Below the pieces are notes generated by a model. That model saw nothing but the letters and a program-made list of their open reading frames with translations, searched no databases and was not told the DNA's origin. Both the position numbers and the translations under genes were made by a program. A stretch of DNA of 20,000 bases from an uncultured virus (IMG/VR IMGVR_UViG_3300017963_000205) (Duplodnaviria; Heunggongvirae; Uroviricota; Caudoviricetes), in the IMG/VR virus record IMGVR_UViG_3300017963_000205. One strand, written 5' to 3'. Numbering within the stretch: position 1 is the stretch's first letter; every line of letters begins with the position of its first letter. Positions 3-20,000 of this stretch are shown in pieces.

Positions 3-2819
3 AACGGACCCATCGGGTTCAACGGCGTTACCGGAACGACCGGGCCAACGGGCGTGACCGGCGCTACAGGTTCTGCCGGGGCCCAAGGTGACTTAGGGGT
101 GACCGGCGTCACCGGAGCCACGGGCTCGGGAGGCGCTCAAGGAACAACCGGCGTCACTGGCGTCACTGGAGCAGGAGGCGCTCAAGGAACAACCGGCGTC
201 ACTGGCGTCACTGGAGCAGGAGGCGCTCAAGGAACAACCGGCGTCACCGGAGCCACGGGTTCGGGAGGGGCACAAGGAACAACTGGCATTACCGGCGTGA
301 CCGGCGCCACGGGCTCGGCTGGTAGTCAGGGCGTTACTGGCGCGACCGGACCCACGGGCGCGGGCGTGACTGGCGCGACAGGAGCGACGGGCCCGCAAGG
401 TGATCAAGGAACAACCGGCGTTACAGGCGCTGGAACTGCTGGCGTGACCGGGACAACCGGCGTGACTGGCGCTACGGGCTCTGCAGGATCGCAAGGCGAT
501 CAAGGCCCAACCGGCGTGACGGGTGTTACGGGCGCTACGGGCTCTGCAGGGTCACAAGGTGTCACTGGCGCGACCGGGCCTACGGGCGCGGGCGTGACCG
601 GCGCGACAGGGCCAACCGGAACGCAAGGGGTCACGGGGGCTTCTGGAACTACTGGAGCAACAGGTCCGGCCGGCGGTCCAACCGGCGTAACTGGCGCTAC
701 GGGCGTGACCGGCGTTACCGGGTCGGCAGGTACACAGGGCGTCACCGGCGCTACCGGATCGCAGGGAGACCCTGGCGCACCCGGCTCACCGGGCGCGACA
801 GGTCCAACAGGCGTGACGGGCGCAACGGGTTCGGCGGGCACACAGGGCGTTACCGGCGTCACAGGCTCTCAAGGCGATCCTGGTGCTCCGGGCGCTCCAG
901 GCGCACAAGGAACAACGGGTGTTACCGGCGCAACAGGTTCGGCCGGCTCCCAAGGCGTCACAGGCGTGACGGGCGTGACCGGAAGCCAGGGCGATCCCGG
1001 CACTCCCGGTGCTCCGGGTTCCCAAGGCACTACGGGTGTCACTGGCGCCACGGGAACTGCAGGCTCGCAAGGCACGACCGGTTCGACCGGTGTGACCGGG
1101 AGCACGGGCCCGGCAGGCGGACCCACCGGGGCAACAGGCGTCACTGGCGCGACAGGCCCTGCAGGCTCGCAAGGAGTCACGGGCGCTACCGGCTCGGCAG
1201 GTTCTCAGGGCTCTACCGGCGTCACTGGCGTCACTGGCGTCACTGGCGTTGCGGGCGATCCAGGCATTCCAGGCTCTCCGGGTTCTCCGGGCACGACTGG
1301 CGCTACCGGCGCTACAGGCAATGACGGCGTCACTGGCGTCACCGGTGTCACTGGCGTCACTGGTGTTGCAGGCGATCCGGGCATTCCAGGCTCCCCGGGT
1401 TCTCCGGGCACGACAGGCGTGACCGGCGTGACCGGCGTGACCGGCGTTGCGGGCGATCCAGGTATTCCAGGCTCCCCGGGTTCTCCGGGCACTACAGGCG
1501 CGACTGGGGCGACAGGTCCGGCCGGTTCGCAAGGAACGACTGGCTCGACGGGCGTCACTGGGGCGACAGGGCCGGCTGGAGGCCCAACAGGCGCTACGGG
1601 TGTTACAGGGGCGACAGGTCCTGCTGGCTCGCAGGGTGTGACCGGCGCGACGGGGCCAACCGGCTCTCAAGGCGTTACCGGCGTTACAGGATCGCAAGGT
1701 GATCCTGGCGCTCCGGGTGCTCCAGGCGTGCAAGGAACGACTGGCGTTACGGGCGTTACCGGCGTTACAGGAGCGCAAGGTGATTCTGGCGCTCCGGGTG
1801 CCCCGGGCGTGCAAGGAACGACTGGCGTAACGGGCGTAACGGGCGTTACTGGGTTGCAGGGCGACCCTGGTGCTCCGGGTGCTCCCGGCGTGCAAGGAAC
1901 GACAGGCGTGACCGGAGCCACGGGCGCGCAAGGAACAACTGGCGTCACGGGTGTTACTGGCGTTACGGGCTCTCAAGGCGACCCGGGCGCTCCAGGTGCT
2001 CCTGGCGTGCAGGGAACCACAGGCGTTACAGGCGTTACGGGCGTCACTGGTTCGGCAGGGAATCAAGGTACGACAGGCGTAACAGGGGCAACAGGCCCTG
2101 CAGGTGGACCTACCGGGGTCACAGGCGCGACCGGCGCTACGGGCCCTGCGGGCGCTACGGGTGTTACCGGGGCCACAGGGCCGACGGGCTCTCAAGGCGA
2201 TCCGGGCGCTCCTGGCGCTCCCGGCGTGCAAGGGACGACAGGCGTGACCGGCGCGACAGGACCGGCTGGAGCCACGGGCGTTACGGGGTCGACTGGACCG
2301 TCGGGCGTTACCGGGGCGACAGGCCCAGCGGGCGGTCCGACTGGTGCTACGGGTGTTACGGGCGCAACCGGCCCGGCAGGCTCGGACGGAAGCACAGGAG
2401 CTACGGGGCCGAAGGGAGTTACAGGCGTAACGGGAGCTACCGGCGCAGGCGGGGGATTAAAGAGCGTCACTACCGTCAATGCGTTCACTTACGGCCCCAG
2501 CTCGCCCTACAATATCAGCACGCCCAGCGAGCAGGATGAGATCTTCGAGATCACCAACACCGTCTCGCAAGCGGGCGCCGTTAAGTTGCCCGCTGCCTCC
2601 GCCGGGCAGCGATACACAGTTACGTACAGCGGCGTGATCGCCGGAATCGAAATCCACGTGACGTCCGGCGACTCCATTGTTGTTTTGGGAGTTGGTGGCC
2701 CTTATACGACCAAGGCCACGTGTAGCACGACAGCTTCCTACGTAAAAGCCGTCGTTGAGGCAATCAGCGCCAGCACCTGGCTCTGCGAGGTTACGAACGG
2801 ATCGTGGAGCGGCTCCTGA
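3..2819 (+). CDS. Collagen-like (Gly-X-Thr rich) fibre/surface protein with a ~115 aa C-terminal globular domain; 5' truncated by the window
   Basis: About 800 residues of Gly-X-Y repeats ([18 protein letters not shown]). The frame is open from base 3 ([18 protein letters not shown]...), so the GTG at 54 is not the true start. Non-repetitive, beta-rich-looking C-terminus (...[13 protein letters not shown]...[15 protein letters not shown]), TGA stop. Confidence 0.9.
129..247 (+). repeat. Exact 45-bp tandem repeat (about 2.6 copies) inside the collagen gene
   Basis: GGAGGCGCTCAAGGAACAACCGGCGTCACTGGCGTCACTGGAGCA starts at 129 and 174, with a partial copy at 219. Confidence 0.9.
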
Positions 2820-2883: not shown

Positions 2884-3132
2884 ATGACCCTGAAGGAATT
2901 GGTCAAGATCGCATCTGAGGCGTACCCGGACGATTTGGTTCAGCAGTATCACGACAGTGAAGGCGGCGGGGACACGCTCGCCGAGTTCATCGCTCGTGAG
3001 CTGTCGGACACGTTTGATGAGAAGGCTTCCGACGCCGAACAGCTCGAAGAGGCCCTTCGCGCCATGAGCACCGCTCACAGGGAACTGGGTAACGTCGTGA
3101 CCGCATTGGAGGAACATGATGGTCGAGGTTGA
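2884..3132 (+). CDS. Hypothetical acidic helical protein (82 aa)
   Basis: ATG 2884 follows a purine-rich GGGGGA. The track start at 2755 would cross the terminator. The stop overlaps the start of the next gene. Confidence 0.75.
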   Translation: MTLKELVKIASEAYPDDLVQQYHDSEGGGDTLAEFIARELSDTFDEKASDAEQLEEALRAMSTAHRELGNVVTALEEHDGRG

Positions 3133-3688
3133 TGCCGCCACGGGCGGCGCCTACGAGAAAATCGGCGCCTTCATTGTGGCGCTTGGCAGGGAAGACTCCT
3201 CCGGCCTCCGGCGAGCCCTCTTTGAGAAACTGGAGTTGAACGACTATGAGGGTTTCTACGCGCTGGTGTCTGTGGGAGAGGACTCCTTCAAAACGTTGCG
3301 GCAGATCTGCGGCTTTGAGGTAGAGCAGACAGCTGTCACGCTGGAGGTTTCGCCGAACCCGGAAGGCCCCCGGTTTTTGAACTTCGTGGTCAAGGAGTAC
3401 ATCGGAGCCGAAGTCTACCTCAAGGACGAGGAGCGCGGACTGGTCGTGGCGAAAAACTACGAGGATCTGCAGGAAGGCACGGAGATCTTTGTGCCGGCCC
3501 TATTCGGCGGGTACTATAAGCTCCTGATACTCGACATCGACGACACCAAGAAGGTTGCAGGGGCGGCCTCCACCAAGGAGGAGACGGGCACGGCCGCAAC
3601 GCTCGAATACGACAAGGACGACCGTCACTGCTGGGTGGCGAACGGCATCTTCAATATGGATGCCATGAAGAGGTTGGATTTTCGCTAG
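3116..3688 (+). CDS. Hypothetical protein (190 aa), TAG stop
   Basis: GGAGG upstream of the ATG; protein-like composition; the TAG overlaps the AGGAGG SD of the next gene. Confidence 0.75.
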   Translation: MMVEVDAATGGAYEKIGAFIVALGREDSSGLRRALFEKLELNDYEGFYALVSVGEDSFKTLRQICGFEVEQTAVTLEVSPNPEGPRFLNFVVKEYIGAEVYLKDEERGLVVAKNYEDLQEGTEIFVPALFGGYYKLLILDIDDTKKVAGAASTKEETGTAATLEYDKDDRHCWVANGIFNMDAMKRLDFR

Positions 3689-4920: not shown

Positions 4921-6029
4921 GAATCGCATTTGCAGCAGATCTGCACCTGCACCCGCACGCTTGGGCTTCGATGCCCGAGGTCCACGGCGACGCCTACCGG
5001 GCGTTCGACCAGATCGTGGATTTTTGCGTGCAGACCAGTGACGTCCACGCGCTCATTCTGGGCGGGGACGTTTTCGACACGAGCCCGCCGGCCGATGCGG
5101 TTCAGCACTTTCTGGCCGGTTTGGAGCGTCTCAAGCGAGGGCGCGTCCTGGTTTATGCCGTTCAAGGCCAACACGGGCGCTCCAACCCGCCGTGGACGGC
5201 GATCGATCCCTACATCGTCCATTTGCAGGGGCAGCCAATCACGACACTCGAAGGCGTGTGCTTCACCGGCTTCGATCAGGACACGCCCGTCGAGATCAAG
5301 CGCAAACTCGAAGAGCTGGACCCCGGCGTCAACATGCTGATCCTCCATCAGCTGTGTCGGGGGACCGTGCCGGACATCAGCGACCAACAAACGTGGGATC
5401 TGGACCCGGAATGGGTGCCGGAGCACGTGAAGCTGGTGCTGCTGGGCGATTACCACATGCTTTGGGAGCAGCGGAACAGCAAGGGCACGCAGTTCTGCTA
5501 TCCGGGCTCCACGGCCGTCCAGGCCATCGACGAACCGGATCAGAAGCATTTCTTTTCCATCCTCGTCGACGGCCCGGGGCAGTTTCAGGTGGAGCGGGTG
5601 GACATTCGGGGCCGTGTTTACACCCGGATGGTCATCCAGGTGTCGGAGGCGCTGGAGAGCGCGCTCACGTACATCCAGCAGCGCTCGCCCGATGAGGTGG
5701 TTCACATCAAGTACAACACGGACCTGCCGGACGTGGAGAAGCGGTTCCGTGAGATCAACGACGGCGTGCACTTCATGTTCCGGCCGCTGCCGAAGCAACT
5801 GGTCAGTGATCAGGCGAGCATTGATGTAAGCAAACTCAAGAAGATTTCCCTGGAAGGCTGTCTTGGGATGGCCATCGACCGGGAGAAGGAACCGGAGGCT
5901 CACGCTCTGACGCTCCGGCTCCTCAAGGCTGAGGACCCGCGCGTTGCGTTGGCCGAAGCCAGGGAGCACTTTCTAAACCCGGAACCGGTCGCGCAGCCGG
6001 CCATTCCTGACGACGAGGTCCCTTTCTGA
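4917..6029 (+). CDS. sbcD: SbcD/Mre11-like metallophosphoesterase nuclease
   Basis: Motifs ADLH, GGDVFD, GQH (GNH variant), ILHQ, LGDYH, YPGS. The real start is ATG 4917 (MRIAFAADLH) after GGAGG; an SbcC-like gene lies downstream. Confidence 0.88.
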   Translation: MRIAFAADLHLHPHAWASMPEVHGDAYRAFDQIVDFCVQTSDVHALILGGDVFDTSPPADAVQHFLAGLERLKRGRVLVYAVQGQHGRSNPPWTAIDPYIVHLQGQPITTLEGVCFTGFDQDTPVEIKRKLEELDPGVNMLILHQLCRGTVPDISDQQTWDLDPEWVPEHVKLVLLGDYHMLWEQRNSKGTQFCYPGSTAVQAIDEPDQKHFFSILVDGPGQFQVERVDIRGRVYTRMVIQVSEALESALTYIQQRSPDEVVHIKYNTDLPDVEKRFREINDGVHFMFRPLPKQLVSDQASIDVSKLKKISLEGCLGMAIDREKEPEAHALTLRLLKAEDPRVALAEAREHFLNPEPVAQPAIPDDEVPF

Positions 6030-9062: not shown

Positions 9063-9930
9063 GGGGCACACGTATGTCAGGCGAGTGGAGGGGCCAAAAG
9101 GCTACCGTCTTTTGGCTCACCCCTCGCAGGTGCCCCTGATTGAATCTTGCGCCAAGCTCGGCGATACCCGATTCTGCTGTTCCAACCTTCTGCGCGGCTC
9201 AAACCTTATGGATGGCGAGCAGGTGGTGGACCGGATGACTTCGCTGGGAGAACCCGAATACGTTTTTAGGGATGATGTCCGTGACGGCTTGAAGTTTGCC
9301 GCTGCATACAACGAGACCGAGTTGAGAAGCAGCGGCGACGTTCAGCGGCTTCTTCTGCGCTTGCGCCATCACCCGGCCGTTTTTGGTGGACTGGGTTTTG
9401 CTTTCAGAAACATGTTCACACCACATATAGCCCGTCTTCTGGCGGAGATCTACGACATACGGCGTTTCTTCAAGCCCGGGCATTCCAGAAGCATTTCCCG
9501 GCTGAAGAACTACTTCCGAGTGGTCACGCCGAAGCGCGTACGGAGCCTGCACGGAAGGACGACCCAGACGCTGGGTGACGTCCGTTTGATGATCGCGTTG
9601 GACGCATGGCGGGATCACCCGATGACGGGCGACGCCATTGGGGAGGACCGGCCCACGGATGCATACTTTCCGGGGTTCTACTATGTGATGTGCAACGACA
9701 TGGAGCAGGCTCACATAGATCCTCATGTTTTCACGGCTTATGCCGCCTGGCGCACGACGGTCGCGTTCCTGCAGTTCGTCTTCTGGACGTGGGGCCAGCA
9801 GGTGGGGGCACCTCGGTTCGATCCCGAAAAACTCTTTCGTGGGCAGTACATTTGTGAGGGAGATGTGGCTCAAAGTTTCCGCAAGTATATCAGTCAGCTC
9901 GATCTTGACGACATGGAGATGCTGTTTTAA
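9040..9930 (+). CDS. Hypothetical protein containing a degenerate IS110/IS116 (Transposase_20)-like HhH segment
   Basis: ARLLAEIYDIRRF...SRLKNYFRV resembles the AAxILAEIGDIxRF...LxxYxGL pattern. The TTG start is uncertain. Confidence 0.55.
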   Translation: MDYLLQCEGHTYVRRVEGPKGYRLLAHPSQVPLIESCAKLGDTRFCCSNLLRGSNLMDGEQVVDRMTSLGEPEYVFRDDVRDGLKFAAAYNETELRSSGDVQRLLLRLRHHPAVFGGLGFAFRNMFTPHIARLLAEIYDIRRFFKPGHSRSISRLKNYFRVVTPKRVRSLHGRTTQTLGDVRLMIALDAWRDHPMTGDAIGEDRPTDAYFPGFYYVMCNDMEQAHIDPHVFTAYAAWRTTVAFLQFVFWTWGQQVGAPRFDPEKLFRGQYICEGDVAQSFRKYISQLDLDDMEMLF

Positions 9931-9954: not shown

Positions 9955-10251
9955 ATGCGAAAAATCCTCGCAGCCCTCGCTCTCACCGTTCTTCTGACCG
10001 GGTGTGTAGACGACCGCATCAAGCGCCAGATCAGTCTGACCAACACTCGGACGCAGGTGGCTGCCAAGGAGTTCAATGAGGCAGCCACGCCAGAGGAAAA
10101 GGTGAAGGTCGCCGACAGATACATCAACGGGGTGCCCGAAAGAGAGGTGCCTGGGATGAAGCACATGACCCAGGTGGCCGACGACTACTTTCAGGGCAAG
10201 GACCCGAAGGACCCGTTGAACATCCTCAAGAAAAAGAAGCCGGACGAGTAG
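9955..10251 (+). CDS. Small lipoprotein (98 aa), TAG stop
   Basis: MRK + hydrophobic stretch + lipobox LTG-C; strong SD TAAGGAGG. Confidence 0.8.
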   Translation: MRKILAALALTVLLTGCVDDRIKRQISLTNTRTQVAAKEFNEAATPEEKVKVADRYINGVPEREVPGMKHMTQVADDYFQGKDPKDPLNILKKKKPDE

Positions 10252-10254
10252 AAG

Positions 10255-10848
10255 GTGGCTTCACTTCTCCGGGAACGCACAGATGAAGAGCTGGAATGGT
10301 TTCTCTTCTTCTCGATCGCTGTTGCCGGCAAAACAGGACTCATTGTCGAGCAGGCCGTCGAGCGCTTCTTCCAGTTTGCGCATGAGCGGCCTTTTGAATA
10401 CATACGACAGTTGATGGCTGATGGTTGGTACACGGCGGCCCTGCGCGCGGCGCGGGTCGGTCAGTACACCAAGATGAACCGAGCCATGAGGCACATCATT
10501 CAAAGCGGGCTCAACCCACGGACCTGCACGCTGGATGAGCTGGAAGCCGTGCCTGGCATCGGGCCGAAGACGGCCCGGTTCTTTCTGCTTTACACGCGCC
10601 CCGGGCAGCGCGTGGCCGCGCTTGACATTCACATCCTGCGGTTTCTGCGCAGGATCGGCGTGGACGCGCCCGACAACACGCCACAGAACCCAAAAACATA
10701 CCGTCGGCTGGAGAAAGCGTTTCTGGATGCTGCCGACGGGTTGGAGATGACCCCTGCCGAGCTGGACGACGTTCTCTGGCGGGGAAGCTCATACAAGCCC
10801 AAAGCGCCTGTAGCTCAGCTGGCAGAGCCGGGTCTTCTAAAGTCCTGA
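10255..10848 (+). CDS. HhH-GPD superfamily DNA glycosylase/AP lyase-like protein (8-oxoG glycosylase-like)
   Basis: HhH motif LEAVPGIGPKTARFFL with Lys, a downstream AALDIHIL Asp motif, and C-terminal YRRLE...ELDDVLW. GTG start with a weak SD. Confidence 0.75.
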   Translation: MASLLRERTDEELEWFLFFSIAVAGKTGLIVEQAVERFFQFAHERPFEYIRQLMADGWYTAALRAARVGQYTKMNRAMRHIIQSGLNPRTCTLDELEAVPGIGPKTARFFLLYTRPGQRVAALDIHILRFLRRIGVDAPDNTPQNPKTYRRLEKAFLDAADGLEMTPAELDDVLWRGSSYKPKAPVAQLAEPGLLKS

Positions 10849-10880
10849 GAGCGTAGGTTCGAGTCCTACCGGGCGCACCA
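10804..10880 (+). tRNA. tRNA with CUA anticodon (amber suppressor), encoded CCA end
   Basis: Acceptor GCGCCTG/CGGGCGC; D arm GCTC-AGCTGGCA-GAGC; anticodon arm GGGTC-TTCTAAA-GTCCT (CTA at 10837-10839; one U-U mismatch, one G-U); T arm GTAGG-TTCGAGT-CCTAC; ends ACCA. Confidence 0.88.
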
Positions 10881-10890
10881 AACCACGAAG

Positions 10891-10973
10891 GGAGGCATCA
10901 TGGGATAGGGCTGTCGCTGTCGTGATCCTCCACGTTTCAGAGCCGTAGACCATTTAACCCTGAATCTGGAGGA
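10891..10973 (+). promoter_or_regulatory. Putative translational switch leader: SD + ATG-GGA-TAG mini-ORF with two mutually exclusive hairpins
   Basis: GGAGG 10891-10895, ATG 10900, TAG 10906-10908. CCTCC (10927-10931) can pair with the upstream GGAGG or, as TCCTCCA, with TGGAGGA (10967-10973), the SD of the next gene. Confidence 0.55.
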
Positions 10974-10980
10974 AATTGGA

Positions 10981-11586
10981 ATGGAAATCACAGTAAGAGA
11001 TGTGGCCGTTCACCACCATCAACGGGTATGTGAGCTGCTGATGGAAACCAAAGACGAGCTGGACGAGATCATGGAGCTGGAGTCGGCCGAAGGCGTGACC
11101 AAGCCCGGTGAACTCGTCTGCAAGAAGAAGAATGGCCGCAGGGTGTACAGCATCTTCTGCGGAGCGCCCGAGGGTTCGAAGGCAAAGGAGGCGTTCAAAG
11201 TCTACGCGCGGTATGAGGGGCTCCGGCACCAATCCAGGATCTGGCACAACATCACGTACGCGTTGAAGCTGTGCGAGCGGCATGGGGTGAGCCCTGAGTC
11301 TGTTGCATTTTCGGGGGTTGCTCTTGCCAAAAGCATGAAAACCGAGAATCACCGCAAGGACTTCTGTGCGGCCACAATGCACATTGCTCCGAAGGCTATG
11401 GGGCGCGGTGAGGTGCGGGCGCTCACATTGGGCGCAGCCAAACAGTTGTTCAAGATCAAGGCGCGCCTCGATAATGGAGGCTACCGCTACGTCCGTGAGT
11501 GGAAGGAGAAGCGGGAAACCGAACGCGCCGAGCGCCAGCAGCAGATGGCAGACACAAAATCTGGGAGGGAACCCGTAACGGTTTAA
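10981..11586 (+). CDS. Hypothetical basic protein (201 aa) upstream of the Pth2-like gene
   Basis: SD GGAGG at 10968-10972; its TAA stop overlaps the TAAGGAGGT SD of the next gene. Confidence 0.8.
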   Translation: MEITVRDVAVHHHQRVCELLMETKDELDEIMELESAEGVTKPGELVCKKKNGRRVYSIFCGAPEGSKAKEAFKVYARYEGLRHQSRIWHNITYALKLCERHGVSPESVAFSGVALAKSMKTENHRKDFCAATMHIAPKAMGRGEVRALTLGAAKQLFKIKARLDNGGYRYVREWKEKRETERAERQQQMADTKSGREPVTV

Positions 11587-11596
11587 GGAGGTAGCC

Positions 11597-11911
11597 ATGA
11601 AGATGTACGTGTTGACCCGGCGTGACCTCACGCCGGCGCAGCGCGTCGTCCAATCATGCCACGCCGTCGCGCAGCTTGTGCTGCGCAGCGGCACGGACCC
11701 ATAGGTCCGGCATTGGGGGGACGCGCATCAGACGCTCGTCGTATTGGGCGTGAACGACCAGGAAGAGCTGGAACGTTGGGAGTCGAGGCTCAAGCAGGAG
11801 AGGGTACACCATGAGGTGTTCGTCGAACCGGATTTCGGCGAACAGAAAACAGCTTTGGCGGTGAGCCCGGCTACCGACCCACGACTATTCAGAGAGCTGC
11901 GGCTTCTCTGA
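11597..11911 (+). CDS. Pth2-like peptidyl-tRNA hydrolase (104 aa) with an in-frame TAG at codon 36 (readthrough gene or pseudogene); absent from the ORF track
   Basis: Reads MKMYVLTRRDLTPAQRVVQSCHAVAQLVLRSGTDP*VRHWGDAHQTLVVLGVNDQEELERWESRLKQERVHHEVFVEPDFGEQKTALAVSPATDPRLFRELRLL. Pth2-fold hallmarks (YvlxRxDL, QxxHA, W, VVL, EPD, TALA, terminal LxLL) lie on both sides of the TAG at 11702-11704. Perfect SD TAAGGAGGT. Confidence 0.85.
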
Positions 11912-11918
11912 AACGGGA

Positions 11919-11937
11919 CGCCCGGCTCGGCCGGGCG
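11919..11937. other. GC-rich hairpin downstream of the Pth2-like gene (no U-tract)
   Basis: CGCCCGGC-TCG-GCCGGGCG, a perfect 8-bp inverted repeat. Confidence 0.6.
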
Positions 11938-11976
11938 CCTCCATTCGGATTGGTCCCGGCCAGAAAGGAGCACAAG

Positions 11977-12303
11977 ATGGCTTTTGATTGGGATCAAGTC
12001 CTTGAGGTGGCAGAGGACAGCGGCAAAGAGCTGCTGGATCTTCTGAAGCCATACATTCCCGCTTTGAAGCGGGAAGGCAAAGAGGTCTATGAGGGTTTCC
12101 TGAAGCATCTGTTCGATGCCGACTGGGAGGCCATAGACCGTCAAATGTACGAACACATGACGCCGGAAGAGCGCGAGGTTCTCGATTCACAAGTCTACAA
12201 GGACGCCATACAGGCCACGCGCGCCAAGTTCCGGCAAAAGGAGCTGGTGCGTGAGGTCATGTTCAGGGTCAGCCTCCGACTCTTGATGGTGGCAATCCTT
12301 TAA
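11977..12303 (+). CDS. Hypothetical protein (108 aa) with a hydrophobic C-terminal tail
   Basis: ATG 11977 after SD AAGGAG; ends VSLRLLMVAIL-TAA. Confidence 0.75.
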   Translation: MAFDWDQVLEVAEDSGKELLDLLKPYIPALKREGKEVYEGFLKHLFDADWEAIDRQMYEHMTPEEREVLDSQVYKDAIQATRAKFRQKELVREVMFRVSLRLLMVAIL

Positions 12304-12331
12304 GCGCTCCTTCCGGCGAAAGGAGGAGCAC

Positions 12332-12646
12332 ATGCAAACGGCGAAGCGATGCCAGATCATCCTATCCCCCCGGTGTTTCGATGACATGTTTGGAAGACGC
12401 ATGAAAATCGTGAACGCCTTTTTAAGTTGGGGGCGGTTAGTCATCAATGTAGAGGGTGTCGGCTTTACCGGAGACTCCGCCGAGGAGGTCATGGTGGAGG
12501 AGTTCGATTCTCTCCCGCAGTTGCGAAACTGGATTGGGAGGCAGCTGACCAATGGAAGTGGTAGCCACGCTCCGGTTTCTAACGCCCAGCCTCGGCAACG
12601 CAAGAGGCGAGCGTCGGGACCGCATGCTGTACAGCACCGAAGGTGA
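12332..12646 (+). CDS. Hypothetical protein (104 aa)
   Basis: Strong SD AAGGAGGAG; the last 95 nt overlap the next gene. Confidence 0.6.
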   Translation: MQTAKRCQIILSPRCFDDMFGRRMKIVNAFLSWGRLVINVEGVGFTGDSAEEVMVEEFDSLPQLRNWIGRQLTNGSGSHAPVSNAQPRQRKRRASGPHAVQHRR

Positions 12647-16407: not shown

Positions 16408-17440
16408 ATTGAACCCAAAGCTGTTTGCAGCTTTGGAGAAACGCTTCGGGAAAGTGCTGATTTCCAACCCCGGCGAGCGTTTAGTGGAGCGCAAGATACC
16501 CGACCCGGTGCGGCCAGGACGACACAAGCAGTTGATCCTTCGCAGCGGGGAGTATTACAGAGTGGACTGCCCCTATTGCAGCGACAAACGGGGCAGGTTG
16601 TACATCAACTACAGATGGAACACGCGCACCCGGAATGGCGACCGTTTTGGCCGCTTTTTGGCCGTCTGCTTCAATGAAGGGTGTGACCTGAGTGGCTTGG
16701 ACATGGAACTCGGGGCTCTGGCGAAGAACTGGCCGGTCGTGGACCGTCCCTACACAAACAAGCCGGACAGCGGGCCGGAGTTTGCCCCGCAGGTCATGCC
16801 GGGAGTCTGTCTCCCGTTGGACACGCTGCCGCCGGAGCACGAGGCGTGCAAGTACGTTCGTGAGAAACGGGGGTTTGACCCGGTCGAGCTGGGGCGGATG
16901 TGGGGCGTTTCCTATTGCGTCCACTGCGGGGTGACCGACAAGACGCCATATCCCGGGCTGGTCCGGGGGAGGCTGGTCATTCCCATCTGGCGTTCGGGTG
17001 TTCTGGTTGGGTGGCAAACAAGGGCTCTCAATGAGCACGACAGCCCGAAGTATTACACCATGCCGGGTTTCCCGAAGTCGAGGATGCTTTTCAACCAGGA
17101 CCGCGCGCAGCAGTATCGCTTTGGCGTTGTAGTAGAGGGGGTCTTTGACGCTTTCCGCGTCGGCGACCGTGCCGTGGCGCTGTTCGGCAAATCGATGAGT
17201 CAGACGCAGCGCGAACTTGCCGTTGCTTACTGGGGGCAGGGGGCGCTGTGCATCGTTCTGGATGATGACGCGACGGAGGACATGGACCGTCTCAGCCAGG
17301 TCATGGACCCGATGAAGTTCAAGGACGGGTCCTTTATTGTTAGGCTGCCAATCGGGAAAGATCCGGGCAACATGGATCGAGACGAATTGTGGAGGTTGAT
17401 CGCGTCAAATGCCCGAAATCATGGAGTACGGCTTGCCTGA
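16400..17440 (+). CDS. DnaG-like primase (Zn-binding + TOPRIM)
   Basis: CPYC...CFNEGC, RLVIPI, GWQTR, PKY, VVEGVFD, LDDD, KDP. Confidence 0.9.
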   Translation: MDELNPKLFAALEKRFGKVLISNPGERLVERKIPDPVRPGRHKQLILRSGEYYRVDCPYCSDKRGRLYINYRWNTRTRNGDRFGRFLAVCFNEGCDLSGLDMELGALAKNWPVVDRPYTNKPDSGPEFAPQVMPGVCLPLDTLPPEHEACKYVREKRGFDPVELGRMWGVSYCVHCGVTDKTPYPGLVRGRLVIPIWRSGVLVGWQTRALNEHDSPKYYTMPGFPKSRMLFNQDRAQQYRFGVVVEGVFDAFRVGDRAVALFGKSMSQTQRELAVAYWGQGALCIVLDDDATEDMDRLSQVMDPMKFKDGSFIVRLPIGKDPGNMDRDELWRLIASNARNHGVRLA

Positions 17441-20000
17441 TTACGCAAGCGCCAGAGACAAGACAGCTCCAAAACCGGCTCCCGAGCCGGTTCAAGAGCT
17501 GGAACCTGTGCCGACGCCGGAACCTACGAGCGTGTATGCTCGTTTTCCGCTCACGCAGTCCTACATGGAAGCCTCGACGATGTACGGGATGGACCCGGTT
17601 GCCGTGGCTGAACAACTCCTTCACCGGGCAACGGACGTTCCCATCATCGACGTGAAGGGCGAGCCGCTTCGGCCAGTGCTCTGGATTCCCAGCTGCGTGC
17701 TGGGGACGGGGCGCAAATTGCTGCCGGGGGTGGATTTTCATACGAGGCTGATGGTTGTGGGTAAGCGCCCCGGCGTTGACGAGATCAGGGACCGTCGGGT
17801 CTTCGTCGGCGAGACGGGAAGGCTGCTCAGGGACGTGGCCAACGAAGTGGGAATGGGTTCCGAAATCGAAGCTGCGTTCGGGACCAACGTGTTGCGCTTC
17901 ATCCCCTTTGACGGTGGCAAGACGTTGAGGCCCCACCACGTTCGGGACTGCCTGCCGCTTCTGGCGCGTGAGATCGACCTCATCAAACCGCAGTTCATCC
18001 TGCTCTTGGGCACGGATGCGGTGAAGGTCTTCTTTGGCAGCAAACAAACCCTCCAGCGCGTGAGGCATCGCTTGTTCCTCATGCGAAGCATTCAGGACAT
18101 GGGCACCAATCGCGTCATCGACGCCAGCAAGATCTCCGTCGACAATCCCGTCTGGCGGGACAGCGTTAAAATATACGCGACTGTGCACCCCGCCGCTGTT
18201 CTCAGGGAAGGGGGCCTTCGAGACGGCTTCAAGTCTGACATGGCCCAAATGCGCATGATCATGGGCGGTCACGTCTCCAACCCCACGCCCGGCGAGGGCA
18301 TGGATTACCGCTACGTCAATACGGCACGGGACCTGCAGGCTGTCATTCAGCAGGCTGAACAGGAGAGCCCGGTGATCGCCGTTGACTGTGAGTGGGGTGA
18401 TGGTGAGTGGTCCCGAGGCGGTAAGCTGCGCTGTATCCAGTTCTCGTGGAAGCCGGGCAGCGCTTGTGTGGTGATCCTTCGTCACGCGGACATGGTCGAC
18501 TCCCAGGCGCCGACTGAACGACTGGAGATGCTCCGGCTGCTCCGAGAGTATTTCATCAAGATGCACATCGTTGGCCACAATTTCAGGGCTGACGCTCCGT
18601 GGCTACAGGAGTTGGGCATTGACGTTATGCCAAATCTTTGCTTCGACACCATGTTGGCCGATCACGCGTTGAACGAGAACGCGGAACACGCATTGGAGTC
18701 CTGCGCGGCCCGTTACACCAACATGGGCCGTTACGACTGGGATCTGAACGAGTGGGTTCGGCGCAACAATGTGGAGAAGGGAGAAGGCTACCGGGACGTG
18801 CCCGATGAGCTGCTCTTTCCGTACGGTGCCGCCGACGCGGATGCGACGCTTCGCTGCTACGTGACATTGCGTGACATGTTGCAGAAGCCGGAGAACAACG
18901 GGGTTGCCCGACTGTTCTACACGACGGTCATGCCGGCTAACTACCCGCTCTACGAGATGGAACGCAACGGGCTGCTGGCCGATTTCGAGCGCATGGAGGT
19001 TCTGGTTCACCTCTATGCCAACCGGAAGGAAGAGCTGGTTCAGGAGTTACGGGATCTGGTCAAGAAGCCAGAATACAACTTCCGTTCGATTCCGCAGACC
19101 CAGCGGCTGTTGTATGGCCCGATCTCCGAAGGCAACCTTGGGCTGACGCCGGTCAAGACGACCGAGAAGCCCGCCAGGATGTGGTTTGACGTGCCGGAGT
19201 TCGACCTCAAGCGCGTCAGCCCCTCCACGGATGCCGAATCGCTCGAAGCACTGGCGCCGGAGCATGAGGCTGCCAGTAAGCTGCGTGACGTGAAGATCGT
19301 CGATCAGATCTGCAAGAACTTCCTCCGTCCCAAGCAGGATGACGGTCACGGCGGCCTTATCTATAAGGGCGGTGTGACAGGGGAGGTGGACCCGGACGGT
19401 CGGGTGAGGACGAGGCTGTCGCAGATGTCCGAGACGGGGCGGCAGCGCTCGTCCGCGCCCAACATGCAGAACCTCCCGAAGCGGCAGGACAAGGAAACCA
19501 GCCGCATCATGGGAGACGACGTTCACAAGATCCGTAGTTGTTTTGTTGCCCCACCAGGCAGCGTGTTGATCGAGGCCGACTACAAGTCGGCCGAGATCTT
19601 CACGCTTGGCTACCTCGCAAATGACATGAAGTTGGTCGAGGACGCGAAGGCCGACCTGCACGCACGCGGCGCGGTAACCCGAATGGGTTGCCCGCCATGG
19701 GAGGGCTTCGACCAGGGCAAGCCTCCACCAAAGGAATGGTTGGACACTCACAAGGCCATGCGCGTGGCCAGCAAGACCATCAGCTTCGGCATCCCGTACC
19801 AGCGGGGACCGAAGGCCATCGCGCGCGAGATTGAAAAGTCCACACATGGCGCCGTTCCGTGCGACACGCCACGGGCCCAGTCGTTCATCGACGGATTCTA
19901 TGACGACTACAAGGGTGTTGGCACATACGTGGATTACTGCAAGGATTGTGTGGTTACGGAACCGCACTTCATCGAGAACCCGTACGGCCGTCGGCGAAGG
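17409..20000 (+). CDS. polA: Family A DNA polymerase with N-terminal uracil-DNA-glycosylase-like domain and 3'-5' exonuclease; 3' truncated; absent from the ORF track
   Basis: Open frame of 864 codons to the window end. UDG-like region: MVVGKRPG, FVGETG, TNVLRF, HPAAVLR. Exonuclease motifs: AVDCE, HNFRAD, YGAADAD. Polymerase motifs: ETGR, NMQNLP, motif A DYKSAE, DLH, motif B RVASKTISFGIPYQ, NPYGRRR. ATG 17421 is an alternative start. Confidence 0.93.
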   Translation, partial: MPEIMEYGLPDYASARDKTAPKPAPEPVQELEPVPTPEPTSVYARFPLTQSYMEASTMYGMDPVAVAEQLLHRATDVPIIDVKGEPLRPVLWIPSCVLGTGRKLLPGVDFHTRLMVVGKRPGVDEIRDRRVFVGETGRLLRDVANEVGMGSEIEAAFGTNVLRFIPFDGGKTLRPHHVRDCLPLLAREIDLIKPQFILLLGTDAVKVFFGSKQTLQRVRHRLFLMRSIQDMGTNRVIDASKISVDNPVWRDSVKIYATVHPAAVLREGGLRDGFKSDMAQMRMIMGGHVSNPTPGEGMDYRYVNTARDLQAVIQQAEQESPVIAVDCEWGDGEWSRGGKLRCIQFSWKPGSACVVILRHADMVDSQAPTERLEMLRLLREYFIKMHIVGHNFRADAPWLQELGIDVMPNLCFDTMLADHALNENAEHALESCAARYTNMGRYDWDLNEWVRRNNVEKGEGYRDVPDELLFPYGAADADATLRCYVTLRDMLQKPENNGVARLFYTTVMPANYPLYEMERNGLLADFERMEVLVHLYANRKEELVQELRDLVKKPEYNFRSIPQTQRLLYGPISEGNLGLTPVKTTEKPARMWFDVPEFDLKRVSPSTDAESLEALAPEHEAASKLRDVKIVDQICKNFLRPKQDDGHGGLIYKGGVTGEVDPDGRVRTRLSQMSETGRQRSSAPNMQNLPKRQDKETSRIMGDDVHKIRSCFVAPPGSVLIEADYKSAEIFTLGYLANDMKLVEDAKADLHARGAVTRMGCPPWEGFDQGKPPPKEWLDTHKAMRVASKTISFGIPYQRGPKAIAREIEKSTHGAVPCDTPRAQSFIDGFYDDYKGVGTYVDYCKDCVVTEPHFIENPYGRRRR

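What the first reader, a model, noticed from the sequence alone, without database searches (positions are those of the whole stretch)
11597..11911. Pth2-like gene with an in-frame amber codon sitting in a stem-loop
Seen: TAG at codon 36 of a 104-aa gene whose fold motifs are intact on both sides, with a perfect SD and no frameshift. The TAG lies at the loop/3'-stem junction of a perfect hairpin, CGGACC-CATA-GGTCCG (11694-11709), extendable by two more G-C pairs. It falls between the QxxHA helix and the conserved Trp, a region I would expect to tolerate substitution. Inference: full-length hydrolase is made only when the suppressor tRNA about 0.8 kb upstream is active, and the hairpin may tune readthrough.
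Basis: partly seen in the sequence, partly recalled or inferred. Interest (0 to 1): 0.85.

Follow-up and report, generated by a model that had tools for sequence, protein, structure and literature searches.

The report
Conserved amber codon in hydrolase gene
A small phage gene for a peptidyl-tRNA-hydrolase-like protein carries a stop codon at one fixed spot that is kept in distant relatives, always beside a suppressor tRNA gene able to read it, so the protein is probably made only when that tRNA works.

Summary
ORF 11597-11911 is a PTH2-fold gene (Pfam PF01981, E 1.7e-11; model pLDDT 98, TM 0.85 to solved Pth2) with TAG at codon 36 (11702-11704). A tRNA with anticodon CUA lies at 10804-10880.

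The TAG is neither an error nor a private mutation. The same Asp-Pro-TAG-Val codon recurs in six other loci whose proteins are about 47-54% identical to the window's: two 234-247 kb phage records and four Acidobacteriota genomes. All 7 loci have a tRNA(CUA) gene within 1.4 kb and an unknown ORF ("ORF-X") directly upstream. A 96%-identical variant from another study also keeps the TAG.

Both halves of the gene are under purifying selection while synonymous sites are saturated. The two whole phage records are not TAG-recoded: coding density is 0.93 and 0.895 under code 11, and TAG ends about 20% of their ORFs.

The hairpin is not conserved and not significant. The conserved context is Asp-Pro before the stop, which papers report as the poorest termination context.

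Best reading: a tRNA(CUA) / ORF-X / PTH2(TAG) cassette in which hydrolase synthesis is gated by amber suppression. What the cassette achieves is inferred, not shown.

The parts
10804..10880 (+). tRNA gene with anticodon CUA (amber suppressor type), CCA encoded, discriminator A; amino acid unknown
   Evidence: ARAGORN; Rfam RF00005 53.3 bits, one mismatched pair in the anticodon stem; about 77% like phage tRNA-Lys/Arg/Thr genes
10981..11586 (+). ORF-X, 201 aa, unknown function, directly upstream of the hydrolase gene; its TAA stop overlaps the hydrolase's ribosome-binding site
   Evidence: No Pfam, NCBIfam or PHROG family. AF2 model pLDDT 76.8, mostly helical, with no PDB match. The ORF-X HMM built from six relatives ranks it first of the ORFs outside the HMM's own members (4806 ORFs searched), but only at E 0.16.
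11585..11591 (+). Shine-Dalgarno sequence AAGGAGG of the hydrolase gene
   Evidence: read
11597..11911 (+). PTH2-fold gene (PTH2*), 104 codons including one in-frame TAG, ends in TGA
   Evidence: Pfam PF01981 E 1.7e-11; AF2 pLDDT 98.1; Foldseek TM 0.81-0.85 to 2zv3, 1q7s, 1xty, 3erj
11696..11707 (+). conserved recoding site GAC CCA TAG GTC (Asp-Pro-amber-Val); TAG at 11702-11704
   Evidence: GAY CCR TAG GTN in 7 of 7 loci; the TAG is kept in a 96%-identical variant from another study
11694..11709 (+). local hairpin CGGACC-CATA-GGTCCG; judged incidental

Best explanation
The TAG at codon 36 is a selected, programmed amber codon. It is read by the cassette's own tRNA(CUA), so the full-length PTH2-fold protein is made only when, and in proportion as, that suppressor tRNA is expressed, charged and wins against release factor 1. 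The Asp-Pro pair just before the stop slows termination and so favours the tRNA. Position 36 itself is an exposed, variable helix start where any residue will do. What is conserved is therefore the stop, not an amino acid. The gene belongs to a three-part cassette, tRNA(CUA) + ORF-X + PTH2(TAG), found in large phages and in bacterial chromosomes that otherwise use TAG as an ordinary stop.

Shown here: the site, its conservation, the linkage to the tRNA and to ORF-X, selection on both halves, the PTH2 fold, and the lack of genome-wide recoding.

Inferred: that readthrough happens, and that the TAG works as a sensor coupling hydrolase level to suppressor activity.

I think a feedback or damage-control role is the most likely purpose. 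The hydrolase would either clear peptidyl-tRNA made by suppression or limit the charged suppressor. The logic resembles the in-frame UGA of prfB; that comparison is recalled knowledge and was not tested.
For: (1) TAG at the same alignment column, in the context GAY CCR TAG GTN, in 7 loci: the window, G001, G102, G402 and G403, G411 and G412. The window's protein is 47-54% identical to the three intact ones aligned.
(2) All 7 loci have a tRNA with anticodon CTA 16 to about 1300 nt away. The tRNAs differ in acceptor stem and discriminator, so no single amino acid is conserved.
(3) Unbiased profile searches. In the phylum sample, 3 of 401 genomes have a match: 2 with one TAG, 1 without. In the family of G102, 3 of 14 have a match, all with one TAG.
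(4) Purifying selection on both sides of the TAG. G411-G412: N-terminal part 5 synonymous and 0 non-synonymous changes; C-terminal part 3 and 2 (dN/dS 0.22). G402-G403: N-terminal part dS 1.39, dN/dS 0.15. Other pairs have saturated dS with the TAG kept.
(5) A 188-nt contig from another study, 96% alike, keeps the TAG and has a synonymous CCA>CCG next to it.
(6) Of the 150 listed family representatives, 4 start with M exactly at codon 37 and 3 start at codons 47-49. One of these clusters has 7 members, all 68 aa, as expected if gene callers stop at the same TAG.
(7) No recoding: coding density is 0.932 (G403) and 0.895 (G402) under code 11, and 0.910 and 0.903 with TAG read as sense. TAG ends 66 of 343 and 99 of 450 ORFs. 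PTH2* is the only ORF pair between the two phages with aligned in-frame TAGs and a convincing match (66% identity, E 2e-40).
(8) The TGA and TAA versions of the site pattern give 0 true hits of 3 and 0 of 1 in viral contigs; the TAG version gives 2 of 3.
(9) Asp-Pro-stop is the most depleted C-terminal dipeptide (odds ratio 0.33 in 1582 genomes), and Asp-Pro and Pro-Pro stall termination most strongly (passages of bioRxiv 10.1101/751305 and PMC3985003).
(10) Residue 36 is the second residue of helix 2 in a hypervariable column.
Against: No protein, RNA or ribosome data: readthrough is inferred. Whether, and with what, the tRNAs are charged is unknown, and the window's tRNA has a mismatched pair in its anticodon stem. 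The G001 copy also has a 1-nt frame break in its N-terminal part, so that copy may be decaying or misassembled. In G402 the tRNA lies on the opposite strand. The distant relative in G023 has a tRNA(CUA) right downstream but no stop in the gene, so the tRNA is not there only for this codon. The family tree is unresolved (5 of 70 inner branches supported), so one origin with losses cannot be told from repeated gains. G402 and G403 were found with a pattern that required the TAG. The residue aligned to the Lys of the GK motif of solved Pth2 is Gln in this family, so enzymatic activity is uncertain. Only 20 kb of the window's own 186-kb phage was seen.
Confidence: 0.75

Rival explanations
1. The phage uses a TAG-reassigned code (as in code 15 phages), and this TAG is one of many sense TAGs, most of them in late genes outside the window.
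For: A phage-encoded tRNA(CUA) is the hallmark of such phages (abstract of bioRxiv 10.1101/2021.08.26.457843 in the listing). Only 20 kb of a 186-kb contig could be read.
Against: In the window, only this ORF of the 20 tabulated carries an in-frame TAG, and 2 of them end in TAG. The two whole relatives show no gain in coding density with TAG as sense and use TAG as the stop in 19-22% of ORFs. Only PTH2* shares an aligned TAG between them. The cassette also sits in bacterial chromosomes beside MreC, PBP2 and RodA.
Confidence: 0.08
2. The local hairpin around the TAG is a functional readthrough-stimulating structure.
For: A perfect 6-bp stem with the TAG at the loop/3'-stem junction. In G402 and G403 the TAGGT segment can also pair with an upstream ACCT.
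Against: z-scores run from -1.88 to +0.06 in the five loci and +1.31. The predicted structures differ between loci. 4% of window bases lie in such hairpins. Part of the complementarity follows from the codons CCA-TAG-GTN themselves.
Confidence: 0.1
3. The TAG is a nonsense mutation, assembly error or decaying pseudogene.
For: A single stop in a short gene. The G001 copy carries a frame break as well.
Against: The same codon is found in 7 loci and in a variant from another study. dN/dS is well below 1 on both sides. The other six copies have an intact frame.
Confidence: 0.02
4. The TAG encodes pyrrolysine or another special residue needed at position 36.
For: ARAGORN labels any CTA tRNA 'Pyl'.
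Against: PylS is over its cut-off in 0 of 5 records searched. The tRNAs are ordinary cloverleaves of differing sequence. Position 36 is variable and often deleted in homologues.
Confidence: 0.02
5. Termination at TAG followed by re-initiation at codon 37 makes two separate peptides.
For: Codon 37 is GTG in G102, G402 and G001, and gene callers start 68-aa proteins there.
Against: Codon 37 is GTC in the window, G411 and G412 and GTA in G403. The PTH2 fold needs strand 1 and helix 1 from the first 35 residues. The tRNA linkage would be left unexplained.
Confidence: 0.03

Closest known systems
Pth2 / PTRH2 peptidyl-tRNA hydrolase (Pfam PF01981), including the PTH2 genes of jumbo phages (PMC7824862, passages read)
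   Same: Same fold (TM 0.81-0.85 to 2zv3, 1q7s, 3erj and 1xty). Pfam and PDB profile matches. The Q-x-x-H-A and D...T-A motifs are kept. Found in large phages.
   Different: A divergent subfamily: NCBIfam Pth2 equivalogs score 28.8 and 26.7 bits against cut-offs of 126 and 82. The residue aligned to the Lys of the GK motif is Gln. It carries a conserved in-frame amber codon and is tied to a tRNA(CUA) and to ORF-X. None of this appears in the passages read.
Stop-codon recoding in phages with suppressor tRNAs (code 15 crAss-like and Lak phages; bioRxiv 10.1101/2021.08.26.457843 and PMC9523058, listing and abstracts only)
   Same: A phage-encoded tRNA(CUA) and an in-frame TAG whose reading may time or gate expression.
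   Different: Here one gene carries one fixed codon, and the rest of the genome uses TAG as a stop. The gene lies in the replication region, not the late region. The cassette also occurs in bacterial chromosomes.
prfB (release factor 2) autoregulation by an in-frame UGA (recalled knowledge, no call)
   Same: An in-frame stop in a gene of the translation apparatus that could sense the activity acting on that stop.
   Different: prfB uses a +1 frameshift and senses a release factor. Here the reading would be by a dedicated tRNA. Neither the sign nor the existence of feedback is shown.
pylT-pylS pyrrolysine cassette (recalled knowledge)
   Same: A tRNA(CUA) gene linked to genes with in-frame TAG.
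   Different: No PylS, ordinary tRNAs of several kinds, and a variable target position.
Suppressor-like tRNAs of Acidobacteria near toxin-antitoxin genes (PMC5389517, passages read)
   Same: Acidobacterial genomes with nonsense-suppressor-type tRNA genes. In G001 a Gp49-like/HTH_37 pair lies next to the cassette.
   Different: Those are 8/4 or 9/3 'allo-tRNAs'; the ones here fold as ordinary cloverleaves. The word 'hydrolase' does not occur in that paper (0 occurrences).

Membership tests
PTH2 (PF01981) peptidyl-tRNA hydrolase 2 | Sequence match above the curated cut-off | tested here: met
   44.7 bits against a cut-off of 23, residues 1-95. The profile of 70 members hits 2zv3 at E 7.6e-12. 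NCBIfam equivalog cut-offs are not reached.
PTH2 (PF01981) peptidyl-tRNA hydrolase 2 | Pth2 alpha/beta fold | tested here: met
   AF2 pLDDT 98.1. Foldseek TMq 0.81-0.85 to six solved Pth2/Bit1 entries, probability 1.00.
PTH2 (PF01981) peptidyl-tRNA hydrolase 2 | Catalytic residues (a Lys and an Asp, as I recall from work on the Sulfolobus enzyme; not confirmed by any search) | tested here: inconclusive
   H22 is invariant and E77, T85 and A86 nearly so. The Lys of the GK motif aligns to Gln. The one paper found was not read.
PTH2 (PF01981) peptidyl-tRNA hydrolase 2 | Hydrolysis of peptidyl-tRNA | not testable with these tools
   Needs an enzyme assay.
Programmed stop-codon readthrough by a dedicated suppressor tRNA | In-frame stop conserved at one site among diverged relatives | tested here: met
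   7 of 7 loci.
Programmed stop-codon readthrough by a dedicated suppressor tRNA | Cognate suppressor tRNA gene present | tested here: met
   tRNA(CUA) within 1.4 kb in 7 of 7 loci.
Programmed stop-codon readthrough by a dedicated suppressor tRNA | Coding constraint downstream of the stop | tested here: met
   dN/dS 0.22 for the C-terminal part in G411-G412 and in window-G102. The Pfam match and the fold span the stop.
Programmed stop-codon readthrough by a dedicated suppressor tRNA | Full-length product detected | not testable with these tools
   No RNA-run holder was listed and no proteome is available.
Genome-wide TAG reassignment (code 15 type) | Coding density and gene length rise when TAG is read as sense | tested here: not met
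   0.932 to 0.910 (G403), 0.895 to 0.903 (G402), 0.923 to 0.866 (window).
Genome-wide TAG reassignment (code 15 type) | TAG avoided as a terminator; many genes with in-frame TAG | tested here: not met
   TAG ends 66 of 343 and 99 of 450 ORFs. Only PTH2* has a shared in-frame TAG.
Pyrrolysine system | PylS present | tested here: not met
   Over the cut-off in 0 of 5 records; the control rings over the cut-off in 1 of 14 genomes. The window's own full contig could not be searched.

The most novel reading that the evidence does not exclude
The tRNA(CUA) / ORF-X / PTH2(TAG) trio is a mobile, self-governing amber-suppression module. [quoted passage not shown] The amber codon inside the hydrolase gene is the sensor of a feedback loop: suppressor activity sets hydrolase level, and the hydrolase, perhaps aimed by ORF-X, acts back on the suppressor tRNA or on its peptidyl-tRNA by-products. 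It would be a tRNA-based counterpart of prfB autoregulation, used by large phages and by soil bacteria alike.
Probability: 0.3. Interest if true: 0.9.

Novelty: new variant of a known kind. Interest (0 to 1): 0.8.

Why it matters
Natural amber suppressors in standard-code organisms are usually seen as costly accidents or as part of whole-genome recoding. Here a single amber codon is kept at one exposed position of a translation-related enzyme. It is kept across phages and bacteria whose proteins are only about half identical to the window's. It always lies next to a suppressor tRNA, although the tRNAs themselves differ. That points to selection for the stop itself, that is, a built-in gate or sensor of suppression. 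If so, it is a compact natural circuit for regulated readthrough. It would give a reason for lone suppressor tRNAs in large phages: in one 247-kb record the CUA tRNA is the only tRNA found. It also makes a simple prediction that a reporter assay can test. Three full-text searches and passages of four papers found no description of it.

Tried and rejected
- Word-index protein search with the readthrough product: no hit.
- Close relatives of the window in the phage collection and in viral contigs: none.
- The one metagenome scan returned the window's own contig (100% identical over 18,404 bases) and 37%-identical relatives.
- The window's full contig is not held for whole-record searches, so its late genes were not seen.
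- Family tree of 73 rows to test a single origin of the TAG: unresolved, 49 of 70 forks open, and the careful search did not finish.
- Amino-acid identity of the tRNAs. The window tRNA is about 77% like Lys, Arg and Thr tRNAs of phages. The G102-type tRNA is only 75% like host Met and Asn tRNAs. No assignment is possible.
- ORF-X function. No family in Pfam, NCBIfam or PHROGs. Atlas hits are all under 0.9, with DUF6788 and prefoldin-like leads only. No Foldseek match at E <= 0.001. 78 homologous clusters, all 'hypothetical'.
- Homology of the window's ORF-X to the others. hhalign E 0.061. HMM E 0.16, but ranked first of the ORFs outside the HMM's own members. This is suggestive only.
- Complex prediction of ORF-X with the hydrolase: not obtained, so whether they bind stays open.
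- Promoter and terminator scan of 10200-12400: no promoter-like site; 3 terminator-like sites against 1.9 expected, none flanking the cassette.
- RNA evidence: no RNA holder listed.
- CAG version of the site pattern, as a control: 0 PTH2-like of 3 hits, so it gave no sense-codon comparison set.
- Earlier-findings look-ups: nothing.

Full report
**What is in the window**

The window is 100% identical over 18,404 bases to part of a 186,023-bp metagenome contig. It is 60% G+C, and all its convincing genes lie on the + strand. They include a collagen-like repeat protein, an SbcD-like phosphoesterase, an SbcC-like ATPase, an SF2 helicase, and a family A DNA polymerase with exonuclease and UDG-superfamily domains. 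This is the replication region of a large phage.

ARAGORN finds one tRNA gene, at 10804-10880, with anticodon CTA. Rfam's tRNA model gives it 53.3 bits against a gathering score of 29, with one mismatched pair in the anticodon stem.

ORF 11597-11911 has a strong ribosome-binding site (AAGGAGG, 11585-11591). It has 104 codons, one in-frame TAG at codon 36 (11702-11704), and a TGA stop. Read through, it matches Pfam PTH2 over residues 1-95 (E 1.7e-11). With a 70-sequence alignment it folds at pLDDT 98.1. The model superposes on solved Pth2/Bit1 structures at TM 0.81-0.85.

**The TAG is not an accident**

A HMMER search of 1.84 billion representatives found 924 relatives; the best full-length ones are 49-51% identical. 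Among the 150 listed, four start with M exactly at the column of codon 37 and three start at codons 47-49. One of those clusters has seven members, all 68 residues long. That is what gene callers produce if they meet a stop at the same place.

The DNA confirmed it.
- A Pyrinomonadaceae MAG contig (G001, L007) reads ...GAT CCA TAG GTG..., with a tRNA(CTA) 16 nt after the gene. This copy also has a 1-nt frame break in its N-terminal part.
- An unbiased profile search of 401 genomes of that phylum found matches in three: G001 and G102 with one TAG each, and G023 without a stop.
- In the family of G102, 3 of 14 genomes match, all three with one TAG.
- A pattern scan of viral contigs for the site gave three loci. 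Two are true PTH2-like genes in phage records of 246,684 and 233,959 bp (G402, G403).

All seven loci read GAY CCR TAG GTN, that is Asp-Pro-amber-Val. The same pattern with TGA or TAA gave only chance hits (0 of 3 and 0 of 1).

A 188-nt contig from a different study, 96% identical to the window, covers the site. It keeps the TAG and carries a synonymous CCA>CCG in the preceding codon. Its depth is only 2.7, and the two runs that hold the window exactly may be its source.

**Selection**

Between G411 and G412 the N-terminal part has 5 synonymous and 0 non-synonymous differences; the C-terminal part has 3 and 2 (dN/dS 0.22). Between G402 and G403 the N-terminal part has dS 1.39 and dN/dS 0.15. 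In the more distant pairs synonymous sites are saturated, yet the TAG is kept. Both halves are therefore under protein-level constraint.

**Linkage to a suppressor tRNA and to ORF-X**

Every one of the seven TAG-bearing loci has a tRNA gene with anticodon CTA nearby:
- 717 nt upstream in the window
- about 840 nt upstream in G102
- about 1000 nt upstream in G411 and G412
- about 1300 nt upstream in G403
- 16 nt downstream in G001
- 480 nt away on the other strand in G402

. The tRNA was not part of any query.

The tRNAs are ordinary cloverleaves but differ in acceptor stem and discriminator base (A, A, G, A, G in the five). G102, G411 and G412 share one type. Their closest host paralogues are only 75% alike, and PylS is over its cut-off in 0 of 5 records. 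So no particular amino acid is conserved at position 36. That fits its place: the second residue of helix 2, after a short loop, in a column that is hypervariable and often deleted in the family.

Directly upstream of the hydrolase gene, often overlapping it, lies an ORF of 109-201 residues, ORF-X, in all seven loci.
- The G102 and G001 versions are 31% identical (E 3e-26).
- A six-sequence HMM ranks the window's ORF-X first among the ORFs outside its own members (4806 ORFs searched), but only at E 0.16. hhalign gives E 0.061. Its homology is therefore likely but not shown.
- The HMM finds no ORF-X in L004, L006 or L013, the loci searched that hold TAG-less relatives.
- ORF-X has 78 homologous clusters, all 'hypothetical', with no Pfam domain, and no convincing structural neighbour.

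**Not a recoded genome**

I fetched G402 and G403 whole. Coding density under code 11 is 0.895 and 0.932. Reading TAG as sense changes it to 0.903 and 0.910. TAG terminates 99 of 450 and 66 of 343 ORFs.

Among ORFs conserved between the two phages, the hydrolase gene is the only convincing pair with aligned in-frame TAGs (66% identity, E 2e-40). The other 14 rows are low-identity shadow frames. G402's only tRNA is the CUA one.

In the window, only this ORF of the 20 tabulated has an in-frame TAG, and 2 of them end in TAG.

In G001 the cassette lies between RodA and YndJ/YceI-like genes, beside a Gp49-like/HTH_37 pair. In G102 it lies among kinase, HEAT/TonB and Usp genes. That is a cellular, not prophage, context within the 6-10 kb seen.

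**The hairpin**

The stem-loop exists, but it is not unusual. The z-score is -0.78 over 66 nt (49 of 200 shuffles as good) and -1.32 over 43 nt. The window has 66 perfect 6-bp hairpins covering 4% of its bases. The relatives fold differently or not at all: z from -1.88 to +0.06 and +1.31, and the G411 and G412 folds also differ. Part of the pairing follows from the codons CCA-TAG-GTN themselves. I judge the hairpin incidental.

What is conserved is Asp-Pro before the stop and G after it. Passages of two papers state that Asp-Pro-stop is the most depleted C-terminal dipeptide in 1582 bacterial genomes (odds ratio 0.33). They also state that Asp-Pro and Pro-Pro cause the strongest stalling and SsrA tagging at termination in E. 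coli. A slow-terminating context is what a programmed readthrough site would need. Some sense-codon relatives also have Asp-Pro here, so part of this may be ancestry.

**How it most likely works**

Shown:
- a fixed amber codon in a PTH2-fold gene
- its physical linkage to a tRNA(CUA) and to ORF-X
- constraint on both halves of the gene
- ordinary use of TAG as a stop elsewhere in the genome

Inferred:
- The tRNA reads the codon, so hydrolase synthesis is gated by suppressor activity, and proportional to it.
- The Asp-Pro context tips the competition with release factor 1.
- The stop itself is the selected feature, because the tRNAs and presumably the inserted residues differ.

What the gate is for is open. 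I favour a feedback or damage-control role. The hydrolase would either recycle peptidyl-tRNA produced as a by-product of suppression or limit the charged suppressor. This is comparable in logic to the in-frame UGA of prfB (recalled).

Four facts weigh against over-reading this:
- G023 has the tRNA but no stop.
- The residue aligned to the Lys of the GK motif of solved Pth2 is Gln in this family.
- The tree is unresolved.
- There is no expression evidence.

**Comparison with what is known**

PTH2 genes in jumbo phages have been noted and linked to ribosome rescue. The word 'suppressor' does not occur in that paper (PMC7824862, passages). Phage stop-codon recoding with suppressor tRNAs is known (listing and abstracts), but it concerns many genes and a changed code. 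Acidobacterial suppressor-like tRNAs near toxin-antitoxin genes are described; the word 'hydrolase' does not occur in that paper (PMC5389517, passages). Three full-text searches found no description of this cassette; supplements were not examined.

I rate it a new variant of a known kind: programmed readthrough by a dedicated suppressor tRNA.

Noticed in passing
window 10255-10848 and 10804-10880: The Ogg/HhH-type glycosylase-like ORF (Pfam Ogg-HhH, PHROG 11575) runs 45 nt into the tRNA gene and stops inside it. The family match ends at residue 182, just where the tRNA begins, as if the tRNA gene had replaced the ORF's natural end.
   Followed up: partly
window 9955-10251: A lipoprotein-like ORF ends in TAG and is in frame with the glycosylase-like ORF, whose GTG start lies one codon later (TAG AAG GTG). 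Amber suppression would fuse the two into a 297-residue product.
   Followed up: no
window 3116-3688: This ORF also ends in TAG. Readthrough would add 89 codons that overlap the next gene in another frame, a likely cost of carrying the suppressor.
   Followed up: no
window 3-2819: An open-ended protein of at least 938 residues made of collagen-like G-x-y repeats, with a non-repeat C-terminal domain.
   Followed up: partly
window 17409-20000: The family A DNA polymerase has a UDG-superfamily domain in front of its 3'-5' exonuclease domain.
   Followed up: partly
L004 10411-10483; L003 and L001 1537-1609: A TAG-less PTH2-like relative (37% identical) lies beside a tRNA with an 8-nt anticodon loop, which ARAGORN reads as anticodon 'ttca'. 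This may be an opal or quadruplet suppressor, so the family may associate with suppressor-type tRNAs more widely.
   Followed up: partly
L013 9873-10454 (-), tRNA 9788-9859 (-) (G023): A distant PTH2-like gene with an N-terminal extension of about 95 residues and no in-frame stop. A tRNA(CUA) gene follows directly downstream.
   Followed up: partly
G402 (L029-L041), tRNA at 301-374: The only tRNA gene that Rfam finds in this 246,684-bp phage record is the amber-suppressor-type one.
   Followed up: partly
L007 about 5950-5960 (G001): The TAG-bearing hydrolase gene also has a 1-nt frame break after 'ACHA'; a -1 shift restores the family sequence 'CHALAEF'. It is either a decaying copy or a homopolymer assembly error.
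   Followed up: partly
L049 1-1690 (G412:C42): Eleven tRNA genes are packed into 1.7 kb at a contig end.
   Followed up: no
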